64,000 nucleotides of DNA from Deltaproteobacteria bacterium HGW-Deltaproteobacteria-14 (GTDB taxonomy: Bacteria; Myxococcota_A; UBA9042; PHBI01): the NCBI GenBank assembly GCA_002841945.1, contig PHBI01000012.1, forward strand, positions 4,169-68,168. Direction: 5' to 3'. The notes beneath the pieces were generated by a model. The model did not search any database. It saw nothing but the letters and a program-made list of their open reading frames with translations, and had not been told where the DNA came from. Below are positions 10,510 through 58,115 of the stretch, one piece after another; positions within the stretch are counted from its first letter, which is position 1, and every line of letters begins with the position of its first letter. A program made the position numbers and the translations under genes.

Positions 10510-10512
10510 GCC

Positions 10513-15808: not shown

Positions 15809-15911
15809 CGCGCGGCGAACGTCCGGATCATGCCCTACCCGGGGCGGGTGGGCGCTCGCAGCTGTTTCAGGGCTACGAGCAGCAGGCCAAGCCGACGGCG
15901 GCGGCGTCATC

Positions 15912-15980
15912 GACCGGGTTGACGTCGGGTGCGTGTCAACCCGGTTGACGTCGGTCGCGTGTCAATGCGGCTGACACGCC
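15912..15980. repeat. Imperfect tandem direct repeat of about 26 bp carrying embedded palindromes, in a convergent intergenic region. Probable bidirectional terminator structure.
   Basis: ACCGGGTTGACGTCGGGTGCGTGTCAA is followed by CCCGGTTGACGTCGGTCGCGTGTCAA. Contains the near-palindrome GTCAAC-CCG-GTTGAC and the hairpin GTGTCA-ATGCGGC-TGACAC. Lies between the 3' ends of 15185..15808(+) and 15984..18686(-). Confidence 0.5.
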
Positions 15981-15983
15981 TGG

Positions 15984-18686
15984 CTACTCCACAGCTGGGA
16001 TCAAGACCGGGCCGACGTCATCCATGATGAGCGGGTCGGTCGCGTCGCCGCCTCCCATCCCGTAGGGGCCGCCGTCGGGCGAGAGCGGGCGGTAGATGTT
16101 GTCGATGCCGTCGAAGTCCCAGGTGGTCGCGTAGACGCTGACCCCCTCCCAGGTGTCGAGGGCGAAGCGGGCGCCGTCGTACTCGAAGGTGATGGTGTTG
16201 GTCGGCAGATCGACGGTGACCGCGGGGCGCCCGGGGACGCCGCCGCCCCAGGCGGTCTCGGAGGCGCCGGTGATGTTGTAGACCGTGTTCGACCAGCCGA
16301 AGATGAAGTGCGTGAAGTCCCAGGCGAAGCCCTCGGGGGCGGTGCCGTTGATCTTGGGCAGCAGCGTCAGGCCGTCGCGTCCCGGGACATCGAGGTAGAT
16401 CGTGAAGGCGACGTGATCGAAGCCGTTCGATGGGTTCCAGGTGGTGCTCGTCGCGGCCATCGTGAAGCGCAGGCGCAGGGTGGCGCCGCCGGCCTCGATG
16501 ACGAGGCGCGTGACGTCCATGGTGGCGTCGCCCGCGAAGGACGCGTCCTGGGGGTAGGTGTAGGTGCCCGTCGGGCCGTTGTCGTCGTCGAGCGGGTCCT
16601 CGATGGTCAGGATCTGCCCGTCGAAGACGGTCGAGGACGTGAAGGCGTAGCGCGGTGACGCCACGCCGGCGGCCTGGGCGTAGAAGGACACCGTGTGGGG
16701 CGTGTCGCCGTATGGGAAGGAGTCGATCGGGAGGCTCGCGGTGAAGGTGCCGTCCGTGGCGACGACCACGGGGGTCGGCGCGACGAGCTTGTCGTCGATC
16801 ACCATGACGAGCGCAGTGTCGGCGGGGGTCACGCTGCCGGTGACGTCGGTGTTCGCGGTGAACGTCTCGCCGGCGATGGGCGTGTCGACGGTGATGGCGA
16901 CCTCTCCCGGGCCGATCGTGTCCACCTCGTCGGTCGCGAGCAGGACGATGGAGGCGCGCGCCGGCAGCTCGGTCAGCAGGCGCCCGCCGAGGCCGACCCG
17001 CGTCACCGGCTCGTCGACGCCGACCTTCACGATGGCGTCGAGGTGCGTGCCCGCGGCGACGCCGGTCGCCAGGTCGTTGACGAGGATCGGGTGCTCCGAG
17101 GTGTTCATCAGGACGATGGCGGCGTCGGCGTCCGTCGCGCGGCGGAAGGCGAAGACGCCAGGGCCGAAGGGGGCGTCCTGGAGCACGGTGAGGTCGCCGC
17201 GGGTCAGCACTGGGTGGCCCGTGCGGGCGGCGACGAGGGCCTCGAGGAAGGTGTAGGGGGCGCTCGTGGTGTCGAAGTGGTCCACGTCGCCAGCGCCCCA
17301 GCCGTCCGCGAACAGCGACGCTCGGGTCTCGGTGAATGCCTGCTCGGTGCCCTGGTAGATGACCGGGATCCCGGGGATGGTCATCAGCAGCACCAGGGCC
17401 TGGCGGAAGGCCGGCTCGCTGGCGCCGGCGAGGAAGCGCTGGACGTCGTGGTTGTCGATGAAGTTCGGGGTCAGCCCAGGCTCGGGGAAGCGGCTCGGGT
17501 CGTTGGCGAGCCCGAGGCGGTAGCTGAGCTGGGCCGTCGGGTCGCCGCCGCCGATGACGCGCTTGATCTCCTCGTAGAGCGGGAAGGCGAGGACCGCGCC
17601 GAGCTCGGGGGCGGCGGGGGTGCCGAGGTAGCTCGCGCACTTCCGCTCGCCGGCGTCGTCGAAGGGGTCGGAGACCTCGTAGACCTCGCCGAAGGTCAGG
17701 AGGTGGTCACGACCGGTGGCGGCGGCGACCGCGTTCATTCCCGGGGTCGTCGCGTCGGTCCCGTGCAGGAAGTCGTTCCAGAAGGCGTGGTCGACGAACT
17801 TGACGGTGTCGATGCGGAAGCCGTCCACGCCGACCGCCTCGATCCAGTAGCCGTAGCTGTCCCGGAGCGCCTCGCGCACGACGGGGTTGTCGGTGTTCAG
17901 GTCGTCGAGATCGCTGATCTCCCAGGTCTTCTCCTGCACCGGGTCGGTGAAGTCGCCGATGGTCGGGGTCCAGTGGTAGATGGCCGCGGCGAAGTCGGCG
18001 GGGTCGGTCGCGTCGTTCTGGTCGAAGGGCGGCTGGGTCGGGGCGGCGCTCGGCAGCGAGCCGGTGTTCTTGGTGAAGCCGGCGGTCGGATCCTCGGGGT
18101 CGTAGGTGCCGGTCCAGGTGAAGAAGTTCCCGGTGTGATTCGGCACGATGTCTTGGATGAGATACATGCCGCGGCGGTGCAGCGCGTCCGACAGCGCCTG
18201 GTACGTGGCGAGGGTGCCGTAGTGCTCGTCCACGGCCTTGAAGTCGCGGCCCCAGTAGCCGTGGTAGCCGCTGAACTGGGCGAGCGGGTCCCACCACTGG
18301 TTGGCGACGGGGGGCGTGATCCAGACGGCGGTGGCGCCGAGGCCCTGGATGTAGTCGAGGTGATCGATGACGCCTTGCAGATCGCCGCCGCTATAGTGGG
18401 CGTTCGAGGTCGGGTCGTACTCGCCCGCGCCCTGGTCGTCGTTGCTCGGATCGCCGTCGGCGAAGCGGTCGAGCATGACGAAGTAGATGACCTGGTCGCG
18501 CCACTGAGGCGACGGGACGTGGAGCAGCGGCCCGGCGTCGACGGTGTCCTCCGCGGTGTCCGCGGTGTCCGCGGTGTCCGCGGTGTCCGCGGTGTCGGCG
18601 ACGGCCGTGTCGGTGGCGGGCTTGGTGTCCCCGCCGCAGGCCGCGACGAGAGTGAGGGTGGTGAGCCAAGTGGTCACTGCGCGCAT
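15984..18686 (-). CDS. GH13 alpha-amylase-family lipoprotein with a C-terminal glucodextranase-C-like domain.
   Basis: 900 aa. Lipobox LVAACGGD followed by a DTADTADTADTADTAE linker. GH13 regions DQVIYFVMLDRFADGDPSNDD, GYHGYWGRDF and GVDGFRIDTVKF. C-terminal motif IEDPLDDDNGPTGTYTYPQD resembles the Glucodextran_C domain. RBS GGGGGAGG before the ATG. Confidence 0.9.
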   Translation of the reverse strand: MRAVTTWLTTLTLVAACGGDTKPATDTAVADTADTADTADTADTAEDTVDAGPLLHVPSPQWRDQVIYFVMLDRFADGDPSNDDQGAGEYDPTSNAHYSGGDLQGVIDHLDYIQGLGATAVWITPPVANQWWDPLAQFSGYHGYWGRDFKAVDEHYGTLATYQALSDALHRRGMYLIQDIVPNHTGNFFTWTGTYDPEDPTAGFTKNTGSLPSAAPTQPPFDQNDATDPADFAAAIYHWTPTIGDFTDPVQEKTWEISDLDDLNTDNPVVREALRDSYGYWIEAVGVDGFRIDTVKFVDHAFWNDFLHGTDATTPGMNAVAAATGRDHLLTFGEVYEVSDPFDDAGERKCASYLGTPAAPELGAVLAFPLYEEIKRVIGGGDPTAQLSYRLGLANDPSRFPEPGLTPNFIDNHDVQRFLAGASEPAFRQALVLLMTIPGIPVIYQGTEQAFTETRASLFADGWGAGDVDHFDTTSAPYTFLEALVAARTGHPVLTRGDLTVLQDAPFGPGVFAFRRATDADAAIVLMNTSEHPILVNDLATGVAAGTHLDAIVKVGVDEPVTRVGLGGRLLTELPARASIVLLATDEVDTIGPGEVAITVDTPIAGETFTANTDVTGSVTPADTALVMVIDDKLVAPTPVVVATDGTFTASLPIDSFPYGDTPHTVSFYAQAAGVASPRYAFTSSTVFDGQILTIEDPLDDDNGPTGTYTYPQDASFAGDATMDVTRLVIEAGGATLRLRFTMAATSTTWNPSNGFDHVAFTIYLDVPGRDGLTLLPKINGTAPEGFAWDFTHFIFGWSNTVYNITGASETAWGGGVPGRPAVTVDLPTNTITFEYDGARFALDTWEGVSVYATTWDFDGIDNIYRPLSPDGGPYGMGGGDATDPLIMDDVGPVLIPAVE
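18541..18585 (-). repeat. Coding microsatellite of four 9-bp tandem units (GCGGTGTCC) encoding (DTA)n in the linker of the alpha-amylase lipoprotein.
   Basis: gcggtgtcc repeated four times, then a degenerate fifth copy (gcggtgtcg). On the minus strand it translates to DTADTADTADTA. Confidence 0.8.
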
Positions 18687-20163: not shown

Positions 20164-21939
20164 CTAGGGCGCGGTGATGAACGTGTTCTTGTCACCGTCG
20201 GTCTGGGACTCGACGGTCACGGAGGCCCAATCACCGGCGGCCGGCTTGACGTAGGCGGCGACGCCGGTGGCGTCCGCGGCCCCGTCGGCCTTGTACTCGA
20301 CGGCGTCGAGCACGAACACGAACTGGGGCTGCTGGCCGCTGGACAGCAGGCCGTCGTGCTTGCCGGTGTTCTCCGACAGCACGAAGGTCCAGATGCCGTC
20401 GGCGGCCGTCACGTCGCCCTTGGTGCCGTCATCGGTCATGGTGACCTCGCCCCAGGCCCACGCGCTGCCCTTGACCTTGAAGCTCGTGCTGCCCGCGAAC
20501 AGCGACGAGACGTTCGCCGCGTCGATGGTCAGGCGCATGTCGATCTCGCCAAAGGCCCCGATGGTCAGGCCCTGGGCGTCGATCGCGGTGGTGGCGCCCG
20601 CCGTGACCGTGAAGGCGCCGTTGCCGCCAACCCAGATCCAGTCGCCCGCCGCCGGGGCGACGTAGTTGCGCACGAGGCCGTAGCCGAACTCCTGCTCGGC
20701 CGCGTTCGAGACCCACACCGTGACGCCCCAGATGTGGTCGCCAGCGACGGAGCCGGCCGGCTCGTGGCCGCCCGCGTCCCAGGCGCCGTCATCGTAGAGC
20801 GGGACGTACGGCCCACCCCACGAGTTGTCGAAGGCGAGGACGCGGGTGGTCTCGTCGTAGTTGAACGAGCCCTTCCACGCCATGGCGTCGCTGGCCTCGT
20901 AGGTCTGGTTAGCCGAGTCGTCGACCTTGAAGTTGACGGCGACGGTGTCGGCCGGCGGGACGAACGCCGCGGCGGCGACCTTCACGTAGGTGTTCTTGTC
21001 ACCGTCGGGGTAGTTCTGGATCGCGGCCGGCTGGAAGCCCGCGCCGGTGTTGAGGAAGGCGTTGACGCCGTCGGTCGGAGGCGCGCCGTCGACCTTGTAC
21101 TCGACGCCGTCGAGCACGAAGACGAAGGGCGCCTCGGCGCCGGAGACGAGGAGGCCCGTGTGCTTGGTCAGGTTCTCCGAGAGCACGAAGGTGTAGATCT
21201 CGTCGCCCGCGGTGTCGTCGCCCTTGGTGGCGTCGTCGGTCATCTCGACCTCGACCCAACCCCAGGCGCCGCCCTTGACCTTGACGGTGGTGTACGAGCC
21301 GGTGCCGAGGTCGAAGGCGCCGCCGAGGTTCGCGCCGCTGTCGCTGACGTCGATCGTGAGCTTGAGGTCGGTCGTGCCGAAGGCGGGGATGACGAGGCCG
21401 GTCGCGGTCACGGTGCCGGTCTCGCCGGCGGTGATCGTGACGCTGCCGTTGGTGCCCTGCCAGATCCACTGGCCGTCCGAGCCGTCCACGGAGCCGCTGA
21501 TGGCGCCGTAGCCGAACTCCTGGTCGGCCTCGGGGGTCGCGAAGAGGATGCCGCAGGTCCAGATGTGGTCCCCGGCGGTCGCGTCGCCGTGGGTGCCGTC
21601 ATCGTAGAGCATCGGGAAGGGGCCGCCCCAGCTGTTGTCGAACGCGACGATGTTGGTCGCCGCGTCGTAGGCGAAGGAGCCCTTCCAGGCGAGGCCGTCG
21701 GTCGCGTCGTAGGTGCCGTTGGCGCTGTCGTCGATGGTGAAGACGAGCGTGGCGTAGTCGCTCGTCACGTTCGTGTCGGTCTCGACGTTGGTGTCCGCGG
21801 AGGTGTCGCCACCGGTGTCGCTCGTGACGGTGTCGGTCGTCGACGTGTCAGTCGCGGGCTTCGGGTCGTCGCCACACGCTGCGAAGAGCGTCATGGCTCC
21901 CGCGGCGAGCAGCAGAGTGATGGAGTTGAAAAGACGCAT
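20164..21939 (-). CDS. Non-catalytic lipoprotein with two tandem CBM20-like (starch-binding-like) beta-sandwich modules.
   Basis: Start trimmed to ATG 21939 with RBS GGAGGA. Signal MRLFNSITLLLAAGAMTLFAACGDDPKPATDT (lipobox plus D/T linker). Internal duplication of about 250 aa: DDSANGTYDATDGLAWKGSFAYD...DDGTHGDATAGDHIWT repeats as DDSANQTYEASDAMAWKGSFNYD...AGSVAGDHIWG. No catalytic motifs. Confidence 0.8.
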   Translation of the reverse strand: MRLFNSITLLLAAGAMTLFAACGDDPKPATDTSTTDTVTSDTGGDTSADTNVETDTNVTSDYATLVFTIDDSANGTYDATDGLAWKGSFAYDAATNIVAFDNSWGGPFPMLYDDGTHGDATAGDHIWTCGILFATPEADQEFGYGAISGSVDGSDGQWIWQGTNGSVTITAGETGTVTATGLVIPAFGTTDLKLTIDVSDSGANLGGAFDLGTGSYTTVKVKGGAWGWVEVEMTDDATKGDDTAGDEIYTFVLSENLTKHTGLLVSGAEAPFVFVLDGVEYKVDGAPPTDGVNAFLNTGAGFQPAAIQNYPDGDKNTYVKVAAAAFVPPADTVAVNFKVDDSANQTYEASDAMAWKGSFNYDETTRVLAFDNSWGGPYVPLYDDGAWDAGGHEPAGSVAGDHIWGVTVWVSNAAEQEFGYGLVRNYVAPAAGDWIWVGGNGAFTVTAGATTAIDAQGLTIGAFGEIDMRLTIDAANVSSLFAGSTSFKVKGSAWAWGEVTMTDDGTKGDVTAADGIWTFVLSENTGKHDGLLSSGQQPQFVFVLDAVEYKADGAADATGVAAYVKPAAGDWASVTVESQTDGDKNTFITAP

Positions 21940-22260
21940 GGGTTGAAAATTCCTCCTCTCAGGGGGCGAGGCGGCTCGTCCGTCATACCGGGACGGGGCG
22001 ACGTGCCCCATCGTAACGTGACCTCCGGCTTGGTCGCGGGGACGACCACATCGCTGCCGGGATCGGGGCGCATTATTCGCGACGACAACGCTGGAATCAA
22101 GATTGCCGGGCCGATCCGCCCCCAAAGCGTGACGTAGCGGCGAGTCACGCCCGCGGCCGGGCCGTAACCTGCTGTTTCTAAAGCATAGCGAAAGGTGGTG
22201 CCGCGGGTCGCCGCGCGACCCATCGGGTGCGCTCGGGGGGGTGACGTCGCTCGCCGTGAC

Positions 22261-27827: not shown

Positions 27828-29636
<1,809 letters not shown>

Positions 29637-29694: not shown

Positions 29695-32600
29695 ATGAAG
29701 AGCCCGAGCACCTGGATCCGCCTGGCCCTGGGGGCCACGCTGGCGTTTGCCGCCTGCGGCGACGACGCCAAGCCCGTGAGCGACACGAGCGCCGACACCG
29801 GCGCCGACACCGAGGGCGACGTGGTTGACGACGCGACGGACACGAGCGTCGTGGACACGAGCGAGGCCGACACGACGCCGGTGGCGACGCTCGGGGTCAT
29901 CCGGGCGTGGTCTCAGGACGGGAGCTGGGTGCGGGTGCGCTTCGCGACCGCGCCCGATCCCGAGACGGTCAACGTGAGCGCGTTCATGGTGGCGGCGCCG
30001 AACGACGCCGAGGCGACCATCACCGGCGTGACGCTCGACGGCGCGACCGCGACCGCGACCCTGGCCATCGACCCGCCGCTCGACGCGGCGACGCCGTACG
30101 AGGTGACCATCACCGGCGTGGCGGACGCGCAGGGTAATGGCCTGGCCGGCGGCAGCTGGGTCGGCGAGGTCAAGGCGACGGTCTACCTCAACCTGGTGTG
30201 GCACCAGCACCAGCCGTCCTATCTGGACCCCGGCAAGGACGAGCTGCAGGGGCCGTGGGTGCGCAAGCACGCCACCAAGGACTACTTCGACATGACGGCG
30301 ATGGTCGCCGGCTACCCGAAGGTCCACTTCAACGTGAACCTGACCTCGTCGCTCCTCAACCAGCTCGACCTCTACGTCGAGCGCCTCGCGCCGTATGTCA
30401 ATGTGGTTGACAATGCCGTCGACGAGGCCGGGTTTCTCGGGGCCTGGCGCGGCAACACCGACCCGTGGGTCGACCTCCTGCTCGACGACACGCCGGCCAT
30501 CGAGGCGCTGACCGACGTCGAGCGTGACCGCTTCTACGCCGGCGTGTGGTCGTGCAAGAGCATCGCCGAGCCGCTGCGCGCCTTCTTCCCAGAGTACGCG
30601 GCGCTCCTCGCCAAGGACAGCGCGACCTACACGCAGCAGGACCTGGCGCTGCTCAAGGTGTGGTTCGAGCTGGCGTGGATGGACCCGGGCTTCCTCGACG
30701 GCCCGGTAACGGTCTACGACGACGGCGCCGCCGTCGTCGTAGACCTGTCGGACGTCGTGACCAAGGGCAGCGACGGGACCTACACCCTCGCCGCCGGCCT
30801 CGACGACGTGGCGGCGCTCGAGGCGCTGGCCAACCGGCTCGTGGCCGAGAACTTCAAGATCATGAAGGGGGTCTTCGAGATCCATAGGCAGCTCGGCTGG
30901 ACCGGGACGAGCGGCCAGGTCGAGGTGCTGACGACGCCGTTCTTCCACCCCATCCTGCCGCTGCTCTTCGACACCGATCTGGCCGCCGAGGGTCAGCCCG
31001 CCGACACGCTGCCCGACCCGGCCTTCGCCTACCCGGGGGACGCCACGCTGCAGGTCGCGATGGCGGTCGAGTACTACACCCGCCGCTTCGGGCACGCGCC
31101 GCGCGGGATGTGGCCGTCGGAGGGCTCGGTCGCCGAGGAGGTCGTGCCGGCCTTCCGCGACAACGGCATCGACTGGATCGCGACCGACCGCCAGGTGCTC
31201 GAGAAGGGCAAGCCCGGCGCGAGCCACCTCCAGGCCTGGCACGTCGACTCCGACACCGTCGTCGGCGACGGTGGCGACACCAGCGACGACGTCATGATCG
31301 TCTTCCGCGACACCGACCTGTCCGACAAGGTCGGCTTCTTCTACCAGTCGAACCCGCCCGAGGAGAACGCCGCGGACTTCGTGGTCGAGGTCGAGAGCTC
31401 GGCGGGAGCGTGGGGTTCGCCGCGGCGCCTGCTGAGCGTCATCCTCGACGGCGAGAACGCGTGGGAGTGGTACACCAAAGACCACGACGCCACGCGGTTC
31501 CTCGCCGGGGCGTACGCGGGGCTCGAGGCGGCCTACGACGAGGGGTCGGTCATCACCGTGACCGGCAGCGAGTACATCGACGGCGACGCGGCGCGGGACG
31601 TCGCGGCGCACCCCATCGCGAGCCTGCCCGAGTACGAGGACCTGTGGCCGGGCTCGTGGATCGGCGGGCGCTTCGACACCTGGATCGGTGAGGTCGAGGA
31701 GAACCTCGGCTGGAACTACCTCAAGGTGGCGCGCGACGACATCGAGGCGGCCAAGGCCGTGCTGGTGCCGATCCTCGGGATGCCGGCGAGCTACCTCGAC
31801 GCGCCGGACGCGAGCGAGGCGGCGAAGCTGGCGTGGTGGCGGGCGTGGCGCGCGATGTTGAGCGCCGAGGGGTCGGACTGGTTCTGGTGGTACGGGTCGG
31901 ACCAGACCTCGGCCGGCGGCGACGACTCGCCGTTCGACGACATCTACCGCTCGCAGCTGCGGGCGATGTACCAGTTCCTCAACGAGGCGCTGACGTTGTC
32001 GGGGCAGGCGGAGGTCGATGTTCCGGCCTTCCCGCCGATCCTGCAGCCGGCGCCGGCGATCATGACCGGCCCGTTCAGCACCCTGCCGGTGCTCGACGGG
32101 CTGCTCACCCCCGGCGACAGCGAGTGGACCCCGCCGGGCGGGCTCTTCTACGACAACGACACCGCCGGGGCGATCGACGATCCGGACGACGACATCGGGC
32201 GCGTGTTCTACGGCTACCACCCCTTCCAGAGCGGTCGCTGGTACCTCGCGATCGAGCTCAAGGAGGACCTGTCGGCCAAGCTCGGGACCAACTATCAGCT
32301 GGTCGTCTACGCGAGCGCGCAGACGACCGACACCTCGGGCGGGACGCCGGTGGTGACGACGCTGCCGTTCAACACGACGACCGCCGAGGGCGAGACCATC
32401 GCGTTCCAGTCGGGCGGGCCGGCGCGGCGCGTCGCCATCGACTTCTCCGGGAGCGCGCCAGCGGTGACGCTGCAGAACGCCGACGGGAGCGGCGGCTGGG
32501 ACACGGTGGCGAACACGGTGCTCGTCGGCGGGCCGGCCGACGGCGGCGCGCTCATCGAGCTGAGGGTGCTCTTGACGGACCTCGGGATGAGCCTGGGCGA

Positions 32601-36524: not shown

Positions 36525-40094
<3,570 letters not shown>

Positions 40095-40246: not shown

Positions 40247-42913
40247 ATGCGCTCGTCTCTCGTCGCCGTGTGCCCGCTCGTCCTCCTCCTCGTCGCGGCC
40301 GGCTGCGGTGACGACACGGTCGCGTCCCCTGACGGGGCCGGCGGCGACACGACCGTCACCTCGGACACCGCCATGGAGGAGGGCGACGGGGCGGTGGCCA
40401 CCGACACCCACGACGTGCTGGTGACGACCTGCCTCGCCCCCGAGGGCGCCGACCCGAGCGGGACCGATGTGCTGACCGACGACCTCGGCGAGGCCACCGT
40501 CAACGTCGCCGATCGCGACGCCTGCCACCGCACCTACACCCTGACCTCGACCGCGACCCGCCGCGACGACCTGCCGGCGTCTCCGCGGTCGGTCGTCGAG
40601 GAGGCGGGCTACCCGACCCTGCGCAGCGGCAACGACCTGCTCGACGCCCTGCACGCCCTCGCGCTCGCCGAGGCGCGCGAGAACATGGTCGACACCATCA
40701 CCGACGGCGCCTTCTCGCAGGGCGGCGCGACCTCCTGCGGCGACGGCGGCTGCTTCGAGACCGGGCGCAAGTGGACTTATGTCTGGACCCGCGACACCGC
40801 CTTCGCGGTCGATCTCGGGCTGGCCGCCGTCGATCCCGCCCGGGCGGCGAACTCGCTCCGCTTCAAGCTCTCCGCGCGGCGCTCGGGCGGCGACGTGCAG
40901 ATCGTGCAGGACACGGGCTCGGGCGGGAGCTACCCGGTCTCGAGCGATCGCGTCGCCTGGGCGCTCGGCGCCTGGACGCTGCTGCAGCAGCTCGACGGCG
41001 CGGCGCGCACGAGCTTCGGCGACGACGCCCGGGCGGCGATCACGAACACCCTCGAGCACGATCGCGCCGTCGTCTTCGACGTGGCGACCGGCCTCTACCG
41101 CGGCGAGACGTCGTTTCTCGACTGGCGCCAGCAGACCTACCCCGGCTGGACCGAGCTCGACGTCACCGACATCGCCACCAGCGCCGCGCTGAGCACCAAC
41201 GTGCTGCACCTGCGCGCCCTCGAGATCGCCGCCGCGCTGCACGCCGAGGCCGGCGACGACACCGCCGCCGCCCGCTACAGCGGCTGGGCGGACGCCCTGC
41301 GGACGGCCATCCACGACCGCCTCTGGGTCGAGTCCGACGGGCTCTTCGCGAGCTTCCTGCCCAGCACCCTCGATCCGGCGCCGGTCCACCGCTACGACCT
41401 GCTCGGCGAGGCCCTCGCGGTGCTCGCCGGCGTCGCCAGCCCCGACGAGGCGCGCCGCGTCCTCGCCGCCTACCCGAGCTACGGCCCCGGGACGCCGGTC
41501 ATCTGGCCGCAGCAGCAGAACATCTCCATCTATCACAACCGCGCCGAGTGGCCCTTCGTCGACGCCTACTGGCTGCGCGCCGCCGCGGTCGCCAAGAGCG
41601 ACGGCGTCGCCGACAAGATGGTGGCCGCGCTCGTGCGCGGCGCGGCGCTCAACCTGTCGAACATGGAGAACCTCGAGGCCTGGACCGGCGCCCCCTACGT
41701 CGAGGACGGGCTCTACTCGGGGCCGGTCGTGAACTCCCAGCGCCAGCTGTGGTCGGTCGGCGCCTTCCTCTCCATGGTGCACCGCACGCTGTTTGGCCTC
41801 GAGCCGACCCCGGAGGGCCTGAAGATCGCGCCCTACGTCACCCACGGCATGCGGCGGACGTGGTTCGCGGGCAGCGACGAGCTAGTGCTCAACGACTTCG
41901 CCTACCGCGGGCGCCGGGTGACCGTGGTGGTGAGCCTGCCGCCGCCGTCTGGGGCGTCGGCCGGCGGCTCGTACCGCGTTGCACAGGTGCGCCTCGACGG
42001 GCAGCTCGTCACCGAGCCGGTGATCGCGCCCGCGCGCCTCGCCGTGTCGAACCGGGTCGACGTCGCCCTCGAGGAGGACCCCGAGGCGGTCCCCACGACC
42101 GCGCGGGAGGTCGACGGGGCCGCCTGGCAGCAGGTCTTCGGGCCGCGGACCCCGCAGCTCAAGAGCGTCAGCGCCGTCGGCGACCGGCTCTCCCTCGAGC
42201 TCGGCCTCGGCGGCGAGGACCCGGCCGGGCTCCTGCTCCACGTCTATCGGGACGGCGTGCCGGTCGCGAGCGGGCTCCCCGCGACGACCAGCAGCTGGAC
42301 CGATCCCGACTCCGATCCAGCGGCGCCGACCTCGCCGTGCTACGCGGTCGAGGCGTCGTTCACCGCCAGCGGCAACCGCTCGCAGCACTCCCGCCCCGTC
42401 TGCTGGTGGGGGAGCTCCAACGCCGCGATCCAGACCGTCGACGCCGGGGCCTTCGAGGCGGTCGGGGGCGAGGCCGTCACGCAGTACGGGCGCTTCCACT
42501 ACCAGGAGTGGGGTGACGAGGGGGACACGCTGACGGCGCGCGGCTTGCACCCCGCGCGCACCGGGCCGGCGTGGCTCCAGGTGCGCTTCGGCAACGGCGC
42601 TGGGCCGATCAACACCGGCATCACCTGCGCGGTGAAGCGGGTGACGGTGTTCGACGAGGCGAGCGGCGACGAGGTGGGGGGCGGCGTGCTGGTGATGCCG
42701 CAGCTCGGCACCTGGGAGCGGTGGTCCTTGTCGACCTTCGTGCCGGTGACCCTGGACGCGGCGAAGAGCTACCGCGTCGTCATCTCCGGCGACGCGCGGA
42801 CGGTGAACATGTCGTTCTTCTCGCACTTCGCGCACTACAACGGCGGGACCGGCGGCAGCGACGGCCCGTTCGACCGCGTGAACATCGCCGAGCTGCGGAT
42901 CCTGGCCCGCTGA
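40247..42913 (+). CDS. (alpha/alpha)6-barrel glycoside hydrolase lipoprotein, GH15/GH63-like (glucoamylase / glucodextranase / debranching type), with a C-terminal beta-sandwich carbohydrate-binding-like domain.
   Basis: Lipobox LLLVAAGCGDD. KWTYVWTRDTAFAVDL resembles the GH15 YTWTRDS region. 888 aa. The C-terminal approximately 200 aa (...VTVFDEASGDEVGGGVLVMPQLGTWERWS...) look like a CBM-like beta-sandwich. Confidence 0.7.
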   Translation: MRSSLVAVCPLVLLLVAAGCGDDTVASPDGAGGDTTVTSDTAMEEGDGAVATDTHDVLVTTCLAPEGADPSGTDVLTDDLGEATVNVADRDACHRTYTLTSTATRRDDLPASPRSVVEEAGYPTLRSGNDLLDALHALALAEARENMVDTITDGAFSQGGATSCGDGGCFETGRKWTYVWTRDTAFAVDLGLAAVDPARAANSLRFKLSARRSGGDVQIVQDTGSGGSYPVSSDRVAWALGAWTLLQQLDGAARTSFGDDARAAITNTLEHDRAVVFDVATGLYRGETSFLDWRQQTYPGWTELDVTDIATSAALSTNVLHLRALEIAAALHAEAGDDTAAARYSGWADALRTAIHDRLWVESDGLFASFLPSTLDPAPVHRYDLLGEALAVLAGVASPDEARRVLAAYPSYGPGTPVIWPQQQNISIYHNRAEWPFVDAYWLRAAAVAKSDGVADKMVAALVRGAALNLSNMENLEAWTGAPYVEDGLYSGPVVNSQRQLWSVGAFLSMVHRTLFGLEPTPEGLKIAPYVTHGMRRTWFAGSDELVLNDFAYRGRRVTVVVSLPPPSGASAGGSYRVAQVRLDGQLVTEPVIAPARLAVSNRVDVALEEDPEAVPTTAREVDGAAWQQVFGPRTPQLKSVSAVGDRLSLELGLGGEDPAGLLLHVYRDGVPVASGLPATTSSWTDPDSDPAAPTSPCYAVEASFTASGNRSQHSRPVCWWGSSNAAIQTVDAGAFEAVGGEAVTQYGRFHYQEWGDEGDTLTARGLHPARTGPAWLQVRFGNGAGPINTGITCAVKRVTVFDEASGDEVGGGVLVMPQLGTWERWSLSTFVPVTLDAAKSYRVVISGDARTVNMSFFSHFAHYNGGTGGSDGPFDRVNIAELRILAR

Positions 42914-46260: not shown

Positions 46261-48060
46261 CTATCGCAGGGCGACGAAGGCGAAGCCCCGCGCCCCGAGG
46301 GGGGGCACGGTGATGGCGCCCGCGCGCGTGGCGAAGGGGCCGGTGACGCCCTCCGAGAACAAGAGCCTCGGGACGCCGGTCACCGGCGCGTCGAAGGCCT
46401 CGCTGGGCTCGCGGTCGAGGTTCACGACGACCAACACCCGCTCCCCGGCCGCCTCGCGGACGAAGGCCACGCTGCCCTTGCCGCCGGTGACCTCGAGCCG
46501 CCGCTGGGTCCCCCAGCGCAGCGCCGGGTGGGCGTGTCGCAGCGCAATAAGACGGCGGTAGAGGCTCAGCAGTGAGCCCTCGTCCTTGAGTTGCGATGCA
46601 ACATCGACGACGCCGGCCTCGTCCGGGACGGCGAACCACGGGGTGCCGGTCGTGAAGCCCACCCCCGGGGTCTCCTTGGTCCAGCGCATCGGCGTGCGCT
46701 TGTTCTCGTCCGCGCCGCTCTCGCCGCCCTGCATCCCGATCTCCTCGCCGTAGTACATGAAGGGCGTCCCCTCCCAGGCCATCAGCAGCGCCGCGGCGAG
46801 GCGCATCCCGGCGGCGTCCCCGTCGAGCTGCCGCATCACCCGGGGCATGTCGTGGTTGGTCAAAAACGGCGCCTCGAAGCCCGGATCCGCGGCGAAGACG
46901 GTGGCCGCCTTGTCGAGCATCTGGTTGAGGTCGGAGCGCACGCCGTCCTTCACCGCCGCGCGGATCTTGTCCGCGGTGTTGAAGGAGAAGCCGAGGTGAA
47001 ACTCGTCACCGTCGCCGTAGTAGAGCACCTGGTCCTCGGCGCCGCTCCACGCCTCGGCGACGATCACGGCGTCCGGGTGCTCGGCGTCGAGCACCTTGCG
47101 AAAGCGCTTCAAGAACGGGTGGTTACCCTCGAAGTCCGCGACCTTGCCCTCGGGCCCCTCGAAGAGGTGGCGCACGGCGTCGACCCGGAACCCGTCCTGC
47201 CCGCGGTCGAGCCAGAAGCGCGCCGCGTGCATCATCGCGTCCTCGACCTCGGAGTCGCCGAGGTTCAGGTCGGGCATCTCGCTCCAGAAGATCGCGTAGT
47301 AGTACCAGTCGCCGAGCTGGTGCCAGACGGGCGACCCGTCCCACGGTCGCTTCCACCCCTTGGGCGGCGTCTTGACCCAGCTGTAGAACGCGCGCTTGGC
47401 CGCGTCCGGGCCCGCCTTGGCGTCGAGGAACCACGGGTGCTGGCTCGAGCTGTGGTTGAGCACGAAGTCGGTGATGATCCGGATCCCGCGCTGATGCGCG
47501 GCGGCGATGAGCTTGTCGTAGGTGGCGAGGGTCCCGTAGTCGGGGTTGATCCCCTCGTAGTCCGTCACGTCGTAGCCGTGGTAGCTCGGCGACGGGTTGA
47601 TGGGCATCAGCCACAGCGCGTCCACGCCGAGGTCGTTGCCGCCGCTCGGGTCGCCGTCGTTGAGGTAGTCGAGCTTGTCGATGAGCCCCTGGAGGTCGCC
47701 CTTTCCGTCGCCGTCGGAGTCCGCGAAGCTGCGCACGAAGATCTCGTAGAACACCGCCCCGCGCCACCACGGTTGGGCCGGCGGCGCGGCGGTCGCGGTC
47801 GTGTCGGCCGGCTCGAGGGCGAGCGCCGCGTCCGCGACGGCCACGGCCGGCGTCGCCGCGTCGGCCTCCGGGGCGGGCGCGACGGTCTCGAGGGCGGGGG
47901 CCGCGGTCGCCTCGGGCGGCGGCGTCCGGACCGGCGGCTTGTCGCCTTCGCTCTTGCATGAAGAAGTGGCGAATAGGGTGGCGATGGCGAGTGCAGAAGC
48001 CGTTATTGCGCGATTCGCAACTGCGACATGGTCGCGCGTCGTGCCACGAGCAGCGTTCAT
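46261..48060 (-). CDS. GH13 alpha-amylase-family lipoprotein of the alpha-glucosidase / cyclomaltodextrinase / oligo-1,6-glucosidase type.
   Basis: Start trimmed to ATG 48060 with RBS GGAGGA. Signal ...AITASALAIATLFATSSC. GH13 regions WRGAVFYEIFVRSFADSDGDGKGDLQG, YHGYDVTDY, IRIITDFVLNHSS and GFRVDAVRHL. Its stop lies 2 bp from the stop of the convergent surface-protein gene. Confidence 0.85.
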   Translation of the reverse strand: MNAARGTTRDHVAVANRAITASALAIATLFATSSCKSEGDKPPVRTPPPEATAAPALETVAPAPEADAATPAVAVADAALALEPADTTATAAPPAQPWWRGAVFYEIFVRSFADSDGDGKGDLQGLIDKLDYLNDGDPSGGNDLGVDALWLMPINPSPSYHGYDVTDYEGINPDYGTLATYDKLIAAAHQRGIRIITDFVLNHSSSQHPWFLDAKAGPDAAKRAFYSWVKTPPKGWKRPWDGSPVWHQLGDWYYYAIFWSEMPDLNLGDSEVEDAMMHAARFWLDRGQDGFRVDAVRHLFEGPEGKVADFEGNHPFLKRFRKVLDAEHPDAVIVAEAWSGAEDQVLYYGDGDEFHLGFSFNTADKIRAAVKDGVRSDLNQMLDKAATVFAADPGFEAPFLTNHDMPRVMRQLDGDAAGMRLAAALLMAWEGTPFMYYGEEIGMQGGESGADENKRTPMRWTKETPGVGFTTGTPWFAVPDEAGVVDVASQLKDEGSLLSLYRRLIALRHAHPALRWGTQRRLEVTGGKGSVAFVREAAGERVLVVVNLDREPSEAFDAPVTGVPRLLFSEGVTGPFATRAGAITVPPLGARGFAFVALR

Positions 48061-48209: not shown

Positions 48210-49799
48210 ATGCGCGGGCAGTTCACACTCTTCTTCACGGCGCCCGGGCGCCGCTTGGCCCTCGCGGCGCTGCTGGCGCTAGCGGGCTGTGGCTCGGACC
48301 CTGCGGTGCCGGCAGACACCGGCGTCGACAGCGTCGGCAGCGACACGGCCGACGGGACGAGCGCCGACACCGCGACGCCCATCGGCGACGAGACCTACTT
48401 CCCGGTCCCCCCGCCGGCCGGGCCGGTCCCGGAGTCGCTCACCGGCGCCCGCTGGGCCGTCCACTACACCGACGACGTCGCCCCCTTCTGGACCGCGGCC
48501 GAGGCGCTCGGGACGCCGGTCGGGAACTTCCCGACCTATCGCGGGATGGACGGCCGGGTGCTGCCGAGGAGCGAGCGCCGCCCGCGCATGATCTCGCGCC
48601 AGATCCTCGGTTACGCGCTCGGCTACCTGCTGACGGGGGACGTGCAGCTGCTCGAGCACGCGCAGGCGGGGTCCGACTGGCTGCGCGCCCACGCCATCGA
48701 CCGCACCAAGGGCGGCTGCCGCGAGCTGCTCAACGTCGACGGCGGCGACGTCGGCTCGGTGCGGACCGCGCAGGACCTGTCCTATTGCATGACCGGGCTG
48801 GCGGCGCTCTTCTTCGTGACCCGCGACCCGGCGCTCGAGGCTGACCTCGAGTCCGCTCGCGGCTGGCTCTTCGATCCCGCGAAGTACTGGGACGCCGACA
48901 ACGACCGGATCCGCGACGGGCTGGCGGCGGACATGTCCACCGAGGTGGACGTGGACAACGACGGTGGCTGGGAGCTCGTCGCGCAGCTCGACCCGGTCAA
49001 CGCCTTCATGCTGCTCGCGCAGCCGGTGATGTCGACGCCTCAGGCGCGCGAGCGCTTCCTGACCGGCCTCCGCACCCTCGTGCAGACGATGGTCGACGAC
49101 TTCCGCCAGGACGGCCTCTTCTGGGGTGTGTCGACGAACAAGGGCAAGTACGGCACCAAGCACGTCGACTGGGGGCACATCCTCAAGAGCTACTGGATGG
49201 TCCTGCAGGTGGACAAGCGCCTCGCCGACCACCCGTTCCACGACGTCGTCTTCGACCAGGTCTACACCCTCGTCGACCGCGCCTACGACGCCGACAACGG
49301 GCGCTGGTCCAAGCGCCCGACCAGCGCGACCAACGTCGAGTACGGCAGCGACTGGTGGATCTACGCCGAGGAGGACCAGCTCGCGGCGACCCTCGACCTC
49401 ATCGACCACCGCTACACCGAGACCCTGGCCGCGACCGCCGGTCACTGGCTGAGCGACTACGTAGACGGGGCCTACGAGATCGGCGAGATCATCCCCGGGA
49501 TCAAGCGCGACGGCTCGCCGGTCTGGACCTGGCCGGCGACCGACAGCGCCAAGTGCAACGAGTGGAAGAACGCCTTCCACTCGAGCGAGCATGCGCTCGT
49601 GATGGGGCTCCTCGGGCAGTACCGCGACGACGGCGAGGTGGAGCTGCACTTCGCCGTGCCCGCGGCCGACGTCGAGACCTTCATCGCGAAGCCCTACACC
49701 TTCGAGGGCCGCGTCGTCGCGCGCCAGGCCGGCGAGACCTTCACCCTCGGCGGCCGCGAGCTGACCAAGGTCACGGTGACCTTCACCGACATCTACTGA
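48210..49799 (+). CDS. Lipoprotein with a D/T-rich linker. Hypothetical; possibly an (alpha/alpha)6-like carbohydrate-active fold.
   Basis: Start trimmed to ATG 48210. Signal MRGQFTLFFTAPGRRLALAALLALAGCGSDP followed by DTGVDSVGSDTADGTSADT. 529 aa, rich in aromatic residues. No motif confidently recognised. Confidence 0.65.
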   Translation: MRGQFTLFFTAPGRRLALAALLALAGCGSDPAVPADTGVDSVGSDTADGTSADTATPIGDETYFPVPPPAGPVPESLTGARWAVHYTDDVAPFWTAAEALGTPVGNFPTYRGMDGRVLPRSERRPRMISRQILGYALGYLLTGDVQLLEHAQAGSDWLRAHAIDRTKGGCRELLNVDGGDVGSVRTAQDLSYCMTGLAALFFVTRDPALEADLESARGWLFDPAKYWDADNDRIRDGLAADMSTEVDVDNDGGWELVAQLDPVNAFMLLAQPVMSTPQARERFLTGLRTLVQTMVDDFRQDGLFWGVSTNKGKYGTKHVDWGHILKSYWMVLQVDKRLADHPFHDVVFDQVYTLVDRAYDADNGRWSKRPTSATNVEYGSDWWIYAEEDQLAATLDLIDHRYTETLAATAGHWLSDYVDGAYEIGEIIPGIKRDGSPVWTWPATDSAKCNEWKNAFHSSEHALVMGLLGQYRDDGEVELHFAVPAADVETFIAKPYTFEGRVVARQAGETFTLGGRELTKVTVTFTDIY

Positions 49800-57957: not shown

Positions 57958-58115
57958 GCGCGGTCCGCCACGGTTACGGCTCTCCCGACGGCGTGCGCGC
58001 ATCTCGAACCTCCAGCGCGCGAGTGTACCAAAGCTAGCTCGGCGCCGTCCGGGACTCTTCCTGCGCCGGGCGGTCGTGTCTAATGTCCGCCGGTGCGCCA
58101 GCGACGGAGGCCAGC

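What the first reader, a model, noticed from the sequence alone, without database searches (positions are those of the whole stretch)
18520..18686. Shared lipoprotein N-terminus: lipobox Cys + GDD(P/A)KP + D/T-rich low-complexity linker on nearly all glucan-active proteins. Candidate surface-export/tether signal.
The mature N-termini are strikingly similar across unrelated enzymes:

- ACGGDTKPATDTAVADTADTADTADTADTAED (15984 amylase)
- [30 protein letters not shown] (20164 CBM protein)
- ACGDGGSSVSDTTVGDTASGDGTIGDTAAGDT (27828 amylase)
- ACGDDAKPVSDTSADTGADTEGD (GH57)
- [35 protein letters not shown] (pullulanase)
- GCGDDTVASPDGAGGDTTVTSDT (40247)
- GCGSDPAVPADTGVDSVGSDTADGTSADT (48210)
- SCGDDPRPAGDATSASDTRVLDTADVAAPD (CotH-like)

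The periplasmic binding protein MalE has a different, Pro/Ala-rich linker, and the 46261 enzyme begins SSCKSEGDKPP.

A conserved acidic stretch immediately after the lipidated Cys is the hallmark of the Bacteroidetes lipoprotein export signal that flips lipoproteins to the cell surface. A comparable, sequence-distinct signal here would be new for Myxococcota. Alternatively it may be a flexible acidic tether.
Basis: seen in the sequence. Interest (0 to 1): 0.65.

Follow-up and report, generated by a model that had tools for sequence, protein, structure and literature searches.

The report
Shared acidic lipoprotein tag, starch enzymes
Eight lipid-anchored starch-degrading or starch-binding proteins of an uncultured myxobacterium all begin with Cys-Gly-Asp-Asp and a floppy, acidic Asp/Thr-rich stalk. 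The core matches the tag that gut Bacteroides need to put their amylase on the cell surface, so it is a credible but untested sorting signal in a second phylum.

Summary
Eight lipoproteins in a myxobacterial starch locus share lipobox-Cys, Gly+2, Asp at +3 and/or +4, and a 27-39-residue Asp/Thr-rich stalk; six of the eight also have one Lys/Arg at +5..+9 of the precursor-numbered stalk start. The strict GDDxKP heptapeptide occurs in only 3 of 8.

In 20 GH57 orthologues (57-93% identity) C-G-D-D is 96% conserved. The catalytic core is 79% conserved, the signal peptide 28% and the linker about 37%. AlphaFold predicts the stalk to be disordered.

In four syntenic relatives the same split recurs. 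Outward-acting enzymes carry CGD(D/G) plus an acidic D/T stalk. The MalE binding protein and one GH13 carry Lys/Arg at +2..+4 plus a neutral Pro/Ala/Thr stalk. None of 79 orthologues of that GH13 start CGDD.

The core equals the Bacteroides SusG export signal C-S-D-D apart from residue +2.

Caveats:
- CGDDxKP also starts lipoproteins of single-membrane bacteria and a Myxococcus cytochrome c.
- More distant GH57 orthologues lack it.
- No localisation data exist.

Best reading: a surface-sorting tag plus tether (about 0.4). Rivals are a PulA-like type II secretion route and a generic tether.

The parts
18507..18686 (-). N-terminal module of GH13+Glucodextran_C amylase (gene 15984-18686). Signal peptide 18639-18686; Cys17 + CGGDTKP 18618-18638; D/T-rich linker 18507-18617, containing the 9-bp x5.7 repeat 18550-18600 that encodes (DTA)n.
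21763..21939 (-). N-terminal module of the CBM-like 'choice_anch_X' lipoprotein (gene 20164-21939). Signal peptide 21877-21939; CGDDPKP 21856-21876; D/T linker 21763-21855.
27828..28028 (+). N-terminal module of GH13 amylase (gene 27828-29636). Signal peptide with atypical lipobox GAPAC 27828-27890; CGDGGSS 27891-27911; D/T/G linker 27912-28028 (15-bp repeat 27908-28006).
   Evidence: the L128 orthologue starts CGDDGGG
29695..29877 (+). N-terminal module of GH57+CBM20 enzyme (gene 29695-33132). Signal peptide 29695-29754; CGDDAKP 29755-29775; D/T linker 29776-29877. AlphaFold pLDDT is below 50 for residues 21-61.
39921..40094 (-). N-terminal module of the PulA-type pullulanase (gene 36525-40094). 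Signal peptide 40023-40094; CGDDPKP 40002-40022; D/T linker 39921-40001.
40247..40411 (+). N-terminal module of the 888-aa GH-like lipoprotein (gene 40247-42913). Signal peptide 40247-40303; CGDDTVA 40304-40324; D/T/G linker 40325-40411.
48210..48390 (+). N-terminal module of the 529-aa lipoprotein without Pfam hit (gene 48210-49799). Signal peptide 48210-48287; CGSDPAV 48288-48308; D/T/G/S linker from 48309 to about 48390.
57799..58002 (-). N-terminal module of the CotH-family lipoprotein (gene 56425-58002; alternative start 57957). Lipobox ATSSC; CGDDPRP 57889-57909; acidic linker 57799-57888.
54776..55021 (-). Contrast class: MalE-type binding lipoprotein (gene 53642-55021). CGEKDSP 54929-54949, followed by a neutral Pro/Ala/Thr linker 54776-54928.
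   Evidence: orthologues CGGKTEP, CGKGDKP, CGKKGPS
47773..48060 (-). Contrast class: GH13 + DUF3459 enzyme (gene 46261-48060). It has Lys at +2 (CKSEGDK 47938-47958) and a Pro/Ala linker 47773-47937.

Best explanation
The shared N-terminus is a two-part sorting-and-display module on lipoproteins.

Part 1 is a short code read next to the lipidated cysteine: Cys+1, Gly+2, Asp+3, Asp+4, usually with one Lys/Arg at +5..+9. It has the same layout as the Bacteroidota lipoprotein export signal (SusG: C-S-D-D).

Part 2 is a 27-60-residue intrinsically disordered, strongly acidic stalk built from D-T-x units. It grows and shrinks through short tandem DNA repeats.

Proposed mechanism:
1. After Sec export and Lgt/Lsp/Lnt lipidation, proteins with Lys/Arg at +2 stay in the inner membrane. 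This is the Myxococcus xanthus rule. They hang into the periplasm on neutral Pro/Ala/Thr stalks. The GH13 maltodextrin-trimming enzyme follows this pattern. MalE, which has Lys at +3/+4, probably does too.
2. Proteins starting C-G-D-D leave the inner membrane for the outer membrane and are moved to its outer face, and probably into vesicles.
3. There the acidic stalk holds amylases, pullulanase, GH57 and binding proteins away from the anionic cell surface so that they can reach starch.
4. The products then enter through the conserved neighbouring outer-membrane protein and the MalEFGK importer.

Shown here: the motif, its extreme positional conservation, the class split across genomes, and the predicted disorder of the stalk.

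Inferred: surface location (from substrate size, PulA homology and the match to the Bacteroidota signal), the route, and the role of the charge.
For: - Position-specific selection. In 20 close GH57 orthologues the majority-residue frequency is 0.96 for +1..+4. It is 0.28 for the signal peptide, 0.35-0.39 for the linker and 0.79 for the GH57 core. In the 18 scored, Gly+2 is 16/18, Asp+3 18/18 and Asp+4 17/18, while linker Asp content is only 25.6%.
- Shared by unrelated folds with unrelated signal peptides and different synonymous codons, so it is not a copied module.
- The class split is reproduced in four syntenic relatives (L127-L130). CBM-like, GH57, GH13 amylase and pullulanase proteins have CGD(D/G) plus an acidic D/T stalk. 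MalE has CG.K plus a P/A/T stalk. The GH13 46261 orthologues have C(K/R) plus a P/A stalk.
- Control family. 0 of 79 orthologues of GH13 46261 start CGDD. 33 of 79 (15 of the 18 closest) have K/R at +2. Their net linker charge is -0.08 to -0.11 per residue, against -0.31 for GH57.
- +2 Lys marks inner-membrane lipoproteins in M. xanthus (PMC3222651).
- Asp+3/Asp+4 of C-S-D-D are required for surface exposure of the Bacteroides amylase SusG (PMC6222051). The general export signal is described in PMC5080379.
- Every glycoside hydrolase of the locus is a lipoprotein, and starch cannot cross an outer membrane. The pullulanase is a full-length PulA homologue (2yoc, E=6e-232). The binding protein carries a 'choice-of-anchor' domain.
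- AlphaFold (82-sequence alignment, mean pLDDT 89) gives pLDDT below 50 and no secondary structure for residues 21-61.
- 15 of 21 class-A proteins have K/R at +5..+9, although linker K/R content is about 2%.
Against: - There are no localisation data for any of these proteins.
- [AG]CGDDxKP also begins genuine lipoproteins in single-membrane Actinomycetota and Bacillota, where nothing needs flipping. It also begins a Myxococcus di-haem cytochrome c, a penicillin amidase and a 5'-nucleotidase, which are probably periplasmic.
- GH57 orthologues below about 55% identity carry other N-termini. Only 2 of 70 start CGDD. They presumably still face starch, so the code is at best clade-specific.
- Three of the eight window proteins have only one Asp at +3/+4.
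- The 506-aa lipoprotein next to the outer-membrane protein, a likely surface partner, lacks the motif.
- The Bacteroidota flippase is unknown (PMC12578637), so no machinery homologue could be sought.
- All exported proteins here are acidic, so pI does not discriminate.
Confidence: 0.4

Rival explanations
1. PulA-like route. The acidic residues next to the Cys keep these lipoproteins out of the Lol pathway, so they stay transiently in the inner membrane. [quoted passage not shown] This is how Klebsiella pullulanase and the lipid-anchored MYXO-CTERM proteins of myxobacteria travel. On this reading the tag is a Lol-avoidance signal rather than a flipping signal.
For: The window pullulanase is a full-length PulA homologue. 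In M. xanthus the type II system moves lipid-anchored MYXO-CTERM proteins from the inner membrane to the surface, 'similar to pullulanase from K. oxytoca' (PMC11980579). The same locus encodes a MYXO-CTERM protein. FibA export in M. xanthus is independent of the +2 Lys rule (PMC3222651).
Against: In enterobacteria the avoidance residue is Asp at +2, whereas here +2 is Gly. The known myxobacterial inner-membrane retention residue is Lys+2, which is used by a different class in this same locus. No type II secretion genes lie in the window. Type II substrates are recognised as folded proteins, which would not explain a conserved basic residue at +5..+9.
Confidence: 0.2
2. Generic lipoprotein tether with no address information. 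Small and acidic residues after the Cys favour processing or Lol release. The D/T-rich stretch is simply this lineage's version of the disordered linker that many outer-membrane lipoproteins need. Where the proteins end up is decided elsewhere.
For: About half of E. coli outer-membrane lipoproteins have a disordered N-terminal linker needed for sorting (bioRxiv 10.1101/2021.01.05.425367). A profile of the eight N-termini retrieves only generic lipoproteins with S/T/D-rich linkers from many phyla, including low-GC Bacillota ('SCGDDTDTNTDTNTES...'). CGDDxKP occurs on binding lipoproteins of single-membrane bacteria.
Against: It does not explain why C-G-D-D is more conserved than the catalytic core. 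It does not explain why other lipoproteins of the same loci manage with CGLD, CASA, CTDP or CAVS and no linker. It also does not explain why stalk chemistry splits cleanly by protein class in five genomes.
Confidence: 0.25
3. The D-T-x repeats are mainly O-glycosylation sites that make a protease-resistant, mucin-like stalk. The conserved start is incidental to this role.
For: In 21 class-A linkers the ordered dipeptide DT occurs 96 times, against 48.6 expected from composition; TD occurs 33 times. The residue after D-[ST] is A/I/L/V/M/T in 69 of 106 cases (65%, against 45% expected). That matches the Bacteroidota general O-glycosylation sequon D-(S/T)-(A/I/L/V/M/T), which I recall from my own knowledge.
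Against: No protein O-glycosylation system is known in Myxococcota and none was found in the literature search. The counts are inflated by tandem repeats and by orthology. The idea does not explain the C-G-D-D conservation and is compatible with the main explanation rather than opposed to it.
Confidence: 0.07
4. The similarity is historical. A 5' gene segment was recently copied among neighbouring genes, or it arose from compositional drift in a 71% GC genome.
For: The linkers are built from short tandem repeats. The codons for G, D, P and K(AAG) are favoured at high GC.
Against: The signal peptides are unrelated. The Cys and Pro codons differ between copies. Each gene's orthologues keep CGDD while their linkers diverge beyond alignment. 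Neighbouring lipoproteins in the same genome have quite different stalks.
Confidence: 0.03

Closest known systems
Bacteroidota lipoprotein export signal: C-X-K-(D/E)2 in Capnocytophaga; S-D-D-D-D / C-S-(D/E)2 in Bacteroides, e.g. SusG C-S-D-D (PMC5080379, PMC6222051)
   Same: It lies immediately after the lipidated Cys, with a small residue at +2 and two Asp at +3/+4. It is position-dependent. It sits on the surface alpha-amylase and binding lipoproteins of a starch utilisation locus and is absent from the periplasmic partners. One basic residue plus an acidic pair is also a feature of the Capnocytophaga version.
   Different: The phylum is Myxococcota. Residue +2 is Gly rather than Ser or Gln. 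The Lys follows the acidic pair instead of preceding it. A long D/T-rich stalk is attached. The partner outer-membrane protein is not a TonB-dependent SusC type. Function is untested, and the export machinery is unknown in both phyla.
[quoted passage not shown]
   Same: One carrier is a full-length PulA homologue. Both are lipidated starch-debranching enzymes with an acidic residue close to the Cys and a low-complexity linker.
   Different: Asp is at +3/+4 rather than +2. Seven unrelated proteins share the tag. No type II secretion genes are in the window.
Myxococcus xanthus lipoprotein sorting rules: +2 Lys for inner membrane, +7 Ala for FibA export to the matrix (PMC3222651)
   Same: The phylum is the same. 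The +2 Lys/Arg rule fits the GH13 46261 class here. There is precedent that myxobacteria sort some lipoproteins beyond the outer membrane through N-terminal residues.
   Different: That study found no consensus for outer-membrane lipoproteins. Its matrix signal is Ala at +7, not Asp at +3/+4.
Intrinsically disordered N-terminal linkers of outer-membrane lipoproteins (bioRxiv 10.1101/2021.01.05.425367), and the tethers of Borrelia surface lipoproteins (the latter from my own knowledge)
   Same: A disordered, low-complexity segment lies between the lipid anchor and the fold. It is predicted disordered here.
   Different: Here the chemistry of the linker (acidic D/T versus neutral P/A/T) tracks protein class, and it is preceded by a fixed four-residue motif.
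MYXO-CTERM / myxosortase sorting (PMC11980579)
   Same: It is a myxobacterial lipid anchor on a Cys flanked by Gly and a disordered region, and it delivers proteins to the cell surface. One such protein is encoded in this locus.
   Different: It is a C-terminal tag with a transmembrane helix and an Arg tail. It uses a different protease and depends on type II secretion.

Membership tests
Bacteroidota-type lipoprotein export signal | Type II (lipoprotein) signal peptide with a lipobox Cys | tested here: met
   All eight have an n-region, an h-region and a lipobox. Two lipoboxes are atypical but conserved: GAPAC and ATSSC.
Bacteroidota-type lipoprotein export signal | Small or polar residue at +2 followed by at least two acidic residues at +3..+5 | tested here: met
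   CGDD is present in 5 of 8 window proteins and 15 of 18 close GH57 orthologues. Three window proteins have only one Asp at +3/+4: CGGD, CGDG and CGSD.
Bacteroidota-type lipoprotein export signal | Fixed position relative to Cys+1 | tested here: met
   Conservation is 0.96 at +1..+4. It is 0.35-0.39 in the following residues and 0.28 in the signal peptide.
Bacteroidota-type lipoprotein export signal | Present on surface-exposed lipoproteins and absent from periplasm-facing ones | tested here: inconclusive
   It is absent from MalE and from 79 of 79 GH13 46261 orthologues. It is present on enzymes whose substrate is extracellular. However, localisation is only inferred, and the heptapeptide also occurs on a Myxococcus cytochrome c and on lipoproteins of single-membrane bacteria.
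Bacteroidota-type lipoprotein export signal | Necessary and sufficient for surface exposure of a reporter | not testable with these tools
   This needs mutagenesis plus proteinase-K or antibody accessibility assays.
Bacteroidota-type lipoprotein export signal | Occurs in Bacteroidota and uses that phylum's (still unidentified) flippase | tested here: not met
   The organism is a member of Myxococcota. The flippase is unknown (PMC12578637). The module may therefore work like this signal but cannot be filed as a member of the family.
PulA-type type II-secreted lipoprotein | Lol-avoidance Asp at +2 | tested here: not met
   Residue +2 is Gly in 16 of 18 orthologues, and Asp is at +3/+4.
PulA-type type II-secreted lipoprotein | Homology to PulA | tested here: met
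   This holds for the pullulanase only: 2yoc_A with E=6e-232 over residues 173-1184.
PulA-type type II-secreted lipoprotein | Dedicated type II secretion genes | tested here: inconclusive
   None are in the 64-kb window. The rest of the genome was not available.
Disordered lipoprotein tether | Low-complexity segment between the Cys and the first folded domain, predicted disordered | tested here: met
   AlphaFold pLDDT is below 50 with no secondary structure for GH57 residues 21-61, while the rest of the model has mean pLDDT 89. D+T+A+G+V+S+P+E make up about 89% of the class-A linkers.
M. xanthus inner-membrane retention class | Lys (or Arg) at +2 | tested here: not met
   0 of 18 close GH57 orthologues and none of the eight window proteins have it. 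It is met by the contrast class GH13 46261 (15 of the 18 closest orthologues).
Bacteroidota O-glycosylation sequon | D-(S/T)-(A/I/L/V/M/T) motifs | tested here: inconclusive
   The motif is enriched: 69 of 106 against 45% expected. The counts are not independent, and no glycosylation machinery was examined.

The most novel reading that the evidence does not exclude
Myxococcota possess a lipoprotein surface-export pathway that reads essentially the same code as Bacteroidota: Cys, a small residue, then Asp-Asp. They use it to display a whole starch-harvesting apparatus (amylases, a PulA-type pullulanase, GH57, binding proteins) around a TonB-independent outer-membrane channel. If the code is shared by two distant phyla, the unidentified flippase is likely to be a conserved envelope machine. 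It could then be found by comparing the two phyla.
Probability: 0.25. Interest if true: 0.8.

Novelty: new variant of a known kind. Interest (0 to 1): 0.5.

Why it matters
How Gram-negative bacteria move lipoproteins to the outer face of the outer membrane is unsolved outside a few systems (Slam, Borrelia LptD, PulA with type II secretion). In Bacteroidota the signal is known but the machine is not.

A second phylum using the same Asp+3/Asp+4 code on the same kind of enzymes would have three consequences:
- It would show that the code is general or convergent.
- It would give a comparative-genomics handle on the flippase.
- It would provide a simple rule to predict which myxobacterial hydrolases are displayed or loaded into vesicles, which is relevant to predation and to the sharing of breakdown products.

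It also outlines a Sus-like but TonB-independent starch utilisation system in Myxococcota. If the tag turns out to be only a tether, the result is still a clear example of linker chemistry tracking cell compartment.

Tried and rejected
- A word-indexed protein search with a profile of five N-termini returned one irrelevant hit (E=4.5) and cost one search.
- The exhaustive profile search with all eight N-termini gave only 27 weak hits (35-41 bits). These were generic lipoproteins from many phyla, mostly fragments. They show that the module is too short for family detection, and that S/T/D-rich lipoprotein linkers are widespread.
Only presence can be reported, plus a rough over-representation of Myxococcota: 19 of 55 genuine hits.
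- The metagenome scan for the extended CGDDxKPxxDT gave only 8 stretches, 7 of them genuine. Their Pfam content was uninformative.
- I tested whether the other post-Cys motifs of distant GH57 clades (C.GKP.PY.PEYD and C..GEWGVTG.D) are also shared tags. Neighbouring lipoproteins in L131 and L132 do not share them, so they look gene-specific.
- Isoelectric point does not separate the classes, because everything exported here is acidic.
- The neighbouring 638-aa outer-membrane candidate has no Pfam, NCBIfam or PDB-profile hit. Single-sequence AlphaFold failed on it (pLDDT 30), so no fold search was run.
- The Lol/MacB-like ABC transporter at 7640-11820 scores far below the LolCDE cut-offs and is not used as evidence.
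- Recent copying of a 5' module was rejected on the basis of codon and signal-peptide differences.


Full report
**What is there.** The window has 71% GC. It matches a 65.6-kb metagenome contig, ENA ERZ27239242 k141_34098. The organism belongs to Myxococcota. The protein encoded at 42938-46258 ends in a MYXO-CTERM tail, GGGCAGAGG...LALALLALAATRRRLARVRRSRSR. The nearest homologues of its GH57 enzyme are named Myxococcota or 'Deltaproteobacteria' MAGs by their sources.

The coordinates of the finding (18520-18686) are the 5' end of the minus-strand gene 15984-18686. This is a GH13 alpha-amylase with a C-terminal Glucodextran_C module. It begins MRAVTTWLTTLTLVAA|CGGDTKPATDTAVADTADTADTADTADTAEDTVDAG. 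The (DTA)n run is encoded by a 9-bp x 5.7 tandem repeat at 18550-18600.

**Check of the observation.** The eight proteins have unrelated folds:
- two GH13 amylases
- GH57 + CBM20
- a PulA-type pullulanase
- a duplicated 'choice_anch_X' binding-type protein
- a weak MGH1-like hydrolase
- a protein with no Pfam hit
- a CotH protein

The DNA pattern for [AG]-C-G-D-D-x-K-P occurs three times in the window, against 0.00 expected in 100 shuffles. Five of the eight start CGDD. The other three start CGGD, CGDG and CGSD.

The signal peptides are unrelated, and the Cys and Pro codons differ between copies (TGT/TGC; CCG/GCC/CCC). The similarity is therefore not a recently copied 5' segment.

The window has about eight further lipoproteins without the feature:
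- MalE ([11 protein letters not shown]..., Pro/Ala/Thr linker)
- GH13 46261-48060 (CKSEGDKPP..., Pro/Ala linker)
- two DUF4185 proteins (CAVSLDD, CTDPAPA)
- a 506-aa protein (CGLDPQVWGG)
- a Glucodextran_C lipoprotein (CATQP)
- two of unknown function (CDKASDGG, CADDPTT)

**Conservation across genomes.** A search with the GH57 enzyme returned 120 full-length orthologues at 41-93% identity. Nearly all are lipoproteins with long low-complexity acidic linkers.

In the close clade (at least 57% identity; 18 sequences scored), Gly+2 is 16/18, Asp+3 is 18/18 and Asp+4 is 17/18. Asp makes up only 25.6% of the linker. Lys is concentrated at +6..+9, whereas K/R is 2.5% of the linker overall.

On the alignment of 20 close sequences, the majority-residue frequencies are:

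| Region | Majority-residue frequency |
|---|---|
| Signal peptide | 0.28 |
| Cys+1..+4 | 0.96 |
| +5..+8 | 0.35 |
| Rest of the linker | 0.39 |
| GH57 core | 0.79 |

The four residues C-G-D-D are thus the best-conserved part of the first 75 residues. They are better conserved than the catalytic core. The 'x-K-P' part drifts (CGDDNKPK, CGDDDKPR, CGDDKPAP, CGDDDPKS). It is best described as one basic residue at +5..+9. That residue is present in 15 of 21 class-A proteins of five genomes (sequences listed).

An AlphaFold model built with 82 sequences has mean pLDDT 89. It gives pLDDT below 50 and no secondary structure for residues 21-61, which is Cys+1 to +41. The stalk is therefore predicted to be disordered.

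**A class split that recurs.** I fetched the syntenic loci of four relatives: L127 (GCA_942493285.1, 9.29 Mb), L128, L129 and L130. The same division appears in each.

- Class A comprises the CBM-like protein, GH57, the GH13 amylases, the pullulanase and the 40247 orthologue. These start C-G-D-(D/G/S) and continue with an acidic D/T-rich stalk. There are 21 such proteins in the five loci.
- MalE orthologues start CGGKTEP, CGKGDKP or CGKKGPS, followed by Pro/Thr/Ala stalks.
- Orthologues of GH13 46261 start CRSE, CRSA or CRTS, followed by Pro/Ala stalks.
- Other lipoproteins have no stalk.

As a control I searched with GH13 46261. Among 79 orthologues that have a lipobox, none starts CGDD. 33 have K/R at +2, including 15 of the 18 closest. 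Their linkers are 19-24% Pro and 19-22% Ala, with net charge -0.08 to -0.11 per residue. GH57 linkers have net charge -0.31 per residue.

In M. xanthus, Lys+2 marks inner-membrane lipoproteins (8 of 12). A Lys+2 signal sequence retains mCherry in the inner membrane (PMC3222651). GH13 46261 is therefore predicted to be anchored in the inner membrane and to face the periplasm. This is the place where imported maltodextrins would be trimmed before MalEFGK uptake.

**Comparison with the known signal.**
- In Capnocytophaga the export signal is C-X-K-(D/E)2-X.
- In Bacteroides fragilis it is S-D-D-D-D, and in Flavobacterium S-D-D-F-E (PMC5080379).
- For the Bacteroides thetaiotaomicron alpha-amylase SusG it is C-S-D-D. 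Asp+3 and Asp+4 are required for surface exposure and vesicle packing. Lipoproteins without it face the periplasm (PMC6222051).

The myxobacterial core C-G-D-D differs from the SusG signal only at +2. It sits on the same kind of enzymes in the same kind of locus. The Bacteroidota flippase is still unidentified (PMC12578637), so I could not test for shared machinery.

**Why surface location is plausible.**
- Every glycoside hydrolase in the locus is a lipoprotein, and none is a plain secreted protein. Starch cannot cross an outer membrane.
- The pullulanase aligns end to end with Klebsiella oxytoca PulA (2yoc, E=6e-232), the classical surface lipoprotein.
- The binding-type protein and the 506-aa lipoprotein carry a 'choice-of-anchor' domain. 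From my own knowledge, that name is given to domains found on proteins with alternative surface anchors.
- A conserved five-gene block lies next to the amylases in all loci, including the more distant L132. It comprises the CBM-like protein, a Glucodextran_C lipoprotein, the 506-aa lipoprotein, a 624-656-aa signal-peptide protein with no family or PDB hit, and a Glucodextran_C protein. This gives the system a Sus-like logic without a TonB-dependent transporter.

**Evidence that limits the claim.** 55 of them are genuine lipoprotein N-termini:

| Group | Genuine hits |
|---|---|
| Myxococcota and 'delta' MAGs | 19 |
| Actinomycetota | 12 |
| PVC group | 7 |
| Bacteroidota | 4 |
| Bacillota / Mycoplasmatota | 3 |
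| Others | 10 |

Actinomycetota and Bacillota are single-membrane bacteria, and there the motif sits on binding proteins.

Among the Myxococcota hits outside the clade are a Myxococcus di-haem cytochrome c, a penicillin amidase and a 5'-nucleotidase. There are also fasciclin, Ig-like, LamG and Dicty_CTDC proteins. The bare heptapeptide is thus neither lineage-specific nor diagnostic of surface location.

A profile of the eight N-termini finds only generic lipoproteins with S/T/D-rich linkers. GH57 orthologues below about 55% identity have other starts, and only 2 of 70 start CGDD. Those other motifs are not shared by neighbouring lipoproteins. No experiment exists for any of these proteins, and I found no paper describing the motif in myxobacteria.

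**Mechanism and rivals.**

My preferred reading (0.4) is a sorting tag that works like the Bacteroidota export signal, followed by a disordered acidic stalk. C-G-D-D proteins leave the inner membrane and are placed on the outer face of the outer membrane, probably also in vesicles. The stalk keeps them extended from the anionic surface.

The main mechanistic rival (0.2) is the PulA route, in which retention in the inner membrane is followed by type II secretion. This route is experimentally established for lipid-anchored MYXO-CTERM proteins in M. xanthus (PMC11980579). It is weakened because +2 is Gly, and because the known myxobacterial retention residue (Lys+2) is used by a different class in this very locus.

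The generic-tether reading (0.25) fits the wide distribution of such linkers and the role of disordered linkers in Lol sorting (bioRxiv 10.1101/2021.01.05.425367). It does not explain the near-invariance of Gly+2, Asp+3 and Asp+4, or the class split.

A side observation concerns the order of residues in the stalk. The dipeptide D-T occurs twice as often as composition predicts (96 against 48.6; T-D occurs 33 times). The residue after D-[ST] is A/I/L/V/M/T in 65% of cases, against 45% expected. That is the Bacteroidota O-glycosylation sequon. A glycosylated stalk is possible (0.07) but has no other support.

**Verdict.** The finding is a real, conserved and class-specific lipoprotein N-terminal module. 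Its core coincides with a known surface-export code from another phylum. It works like that export signal on present evidence, but it cannot be filed as a member of that family, because the phylum and the machinery criteria are not met or not testable. I rate it a new variant of a known kind, with moderate interest (0.5). The decisive tests are a whole-genome lipoprotein census and simple accessibility and mutagenesis experiments.

Noticed in passing
window 20164-27571 (- strand); also L127-L130 and L132: A conserved five-gene block lies next to the amylases. It comprises a duplicated 'choice_anch_X' binding-type lipoprotein (~590 aa), a Glucodextran_C lipoprotein (~310-330 aa) and a 506-515-aa lipoprotein starting CG[LIV]DP..WGNLT. 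It also has a 624-656-aa signal-peptide protein with no Pfam, NCBIfam or PDB hit (starts ..NFE.SGK.YTKWLYRNND, ends ..VGW; a candidate outer-membrane maltodextrin channel) and a 265-276-aa Glucodextran_C protein. The logic is Sus-like, but there is no TonB-dependent transporter.
   Followed up: partly
window 42938-46258 (+): An 1106-aa secreted protein with 162-bp cysteine-rich tandem repeats (43981-45379), a TSP3 repeat and a weak CglD-like region. It ends in a MYXO-CTERM sorting tail. So a second, C-terminal lipid-anchor system for surface proteins is encoded in the same locus.
   Followed up: partly
window 7640-11820 (+): An ABC ATPase plus two FtsX-type permeases (695 and 435 aa). The best NCBIfam hits are LolD and LolC/E, but they score far below the curated cut-offs. 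This is a Lol/MacB-like exporter of unknown substrate.
   Followed up: partly
P0026-P0121 (GH57 orthologues); L131, L132: Other Myxococcota and Bradymonadales clades of the same GH57 lipoprotein carry different conserved motifs right after the Cys: C-[AG]-[GT]-K-P-x-P-Y-x-P-E-Y-D, C-x-x-[GE]-[EHN]-W-G-V-T-G-x-D, C-x-K-K-P-E-P and C-A-x-T-P...AAAYN..LDG. Neighbouring lipoproteins do not share them, and their role is unknown.
   Followed up: partly
window 27879-27890; 47959-47970; 57910-57921; L128 8142-10004: Atypical lipoboxes are conserved. Pro is at -2 (GAPAC / GAPGC) in the GH13 amylase and its orthologue. A-T-S-S-C occurs in GH13 46261 and in the CotH protein.
   Followed up: no
window 15904-15975: A 26-bp repeat (about 2.3 copies) lies in the intergenic region just downstream of the amylase gene's stop codon. 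It was not examined.
   Followed up: no
window 54806-54914 (- strand gene 53642-55021): The neutral Pro/Ala linker of MalE is also built from tandem repeats (30 and 36 bp). Both stalk types therefore evolve by repeat expansion while keeping their class-specific chemistry.
   Followed up: partly
window 46159-46200 compared with the class-A N-termini: Read outward from its lipidated Cys, the MYXO-CTERM region of 42938-46258 (..VVTTPKDGGGC) gives C-G-G-G-D-K-P-T-T. This mirrors the N-terminal C-G-(G/D)-D-x-K-P-x-T of the lipoproteins. It may be coincidence or a shared membrane-interface constraint.
   Followed up: no
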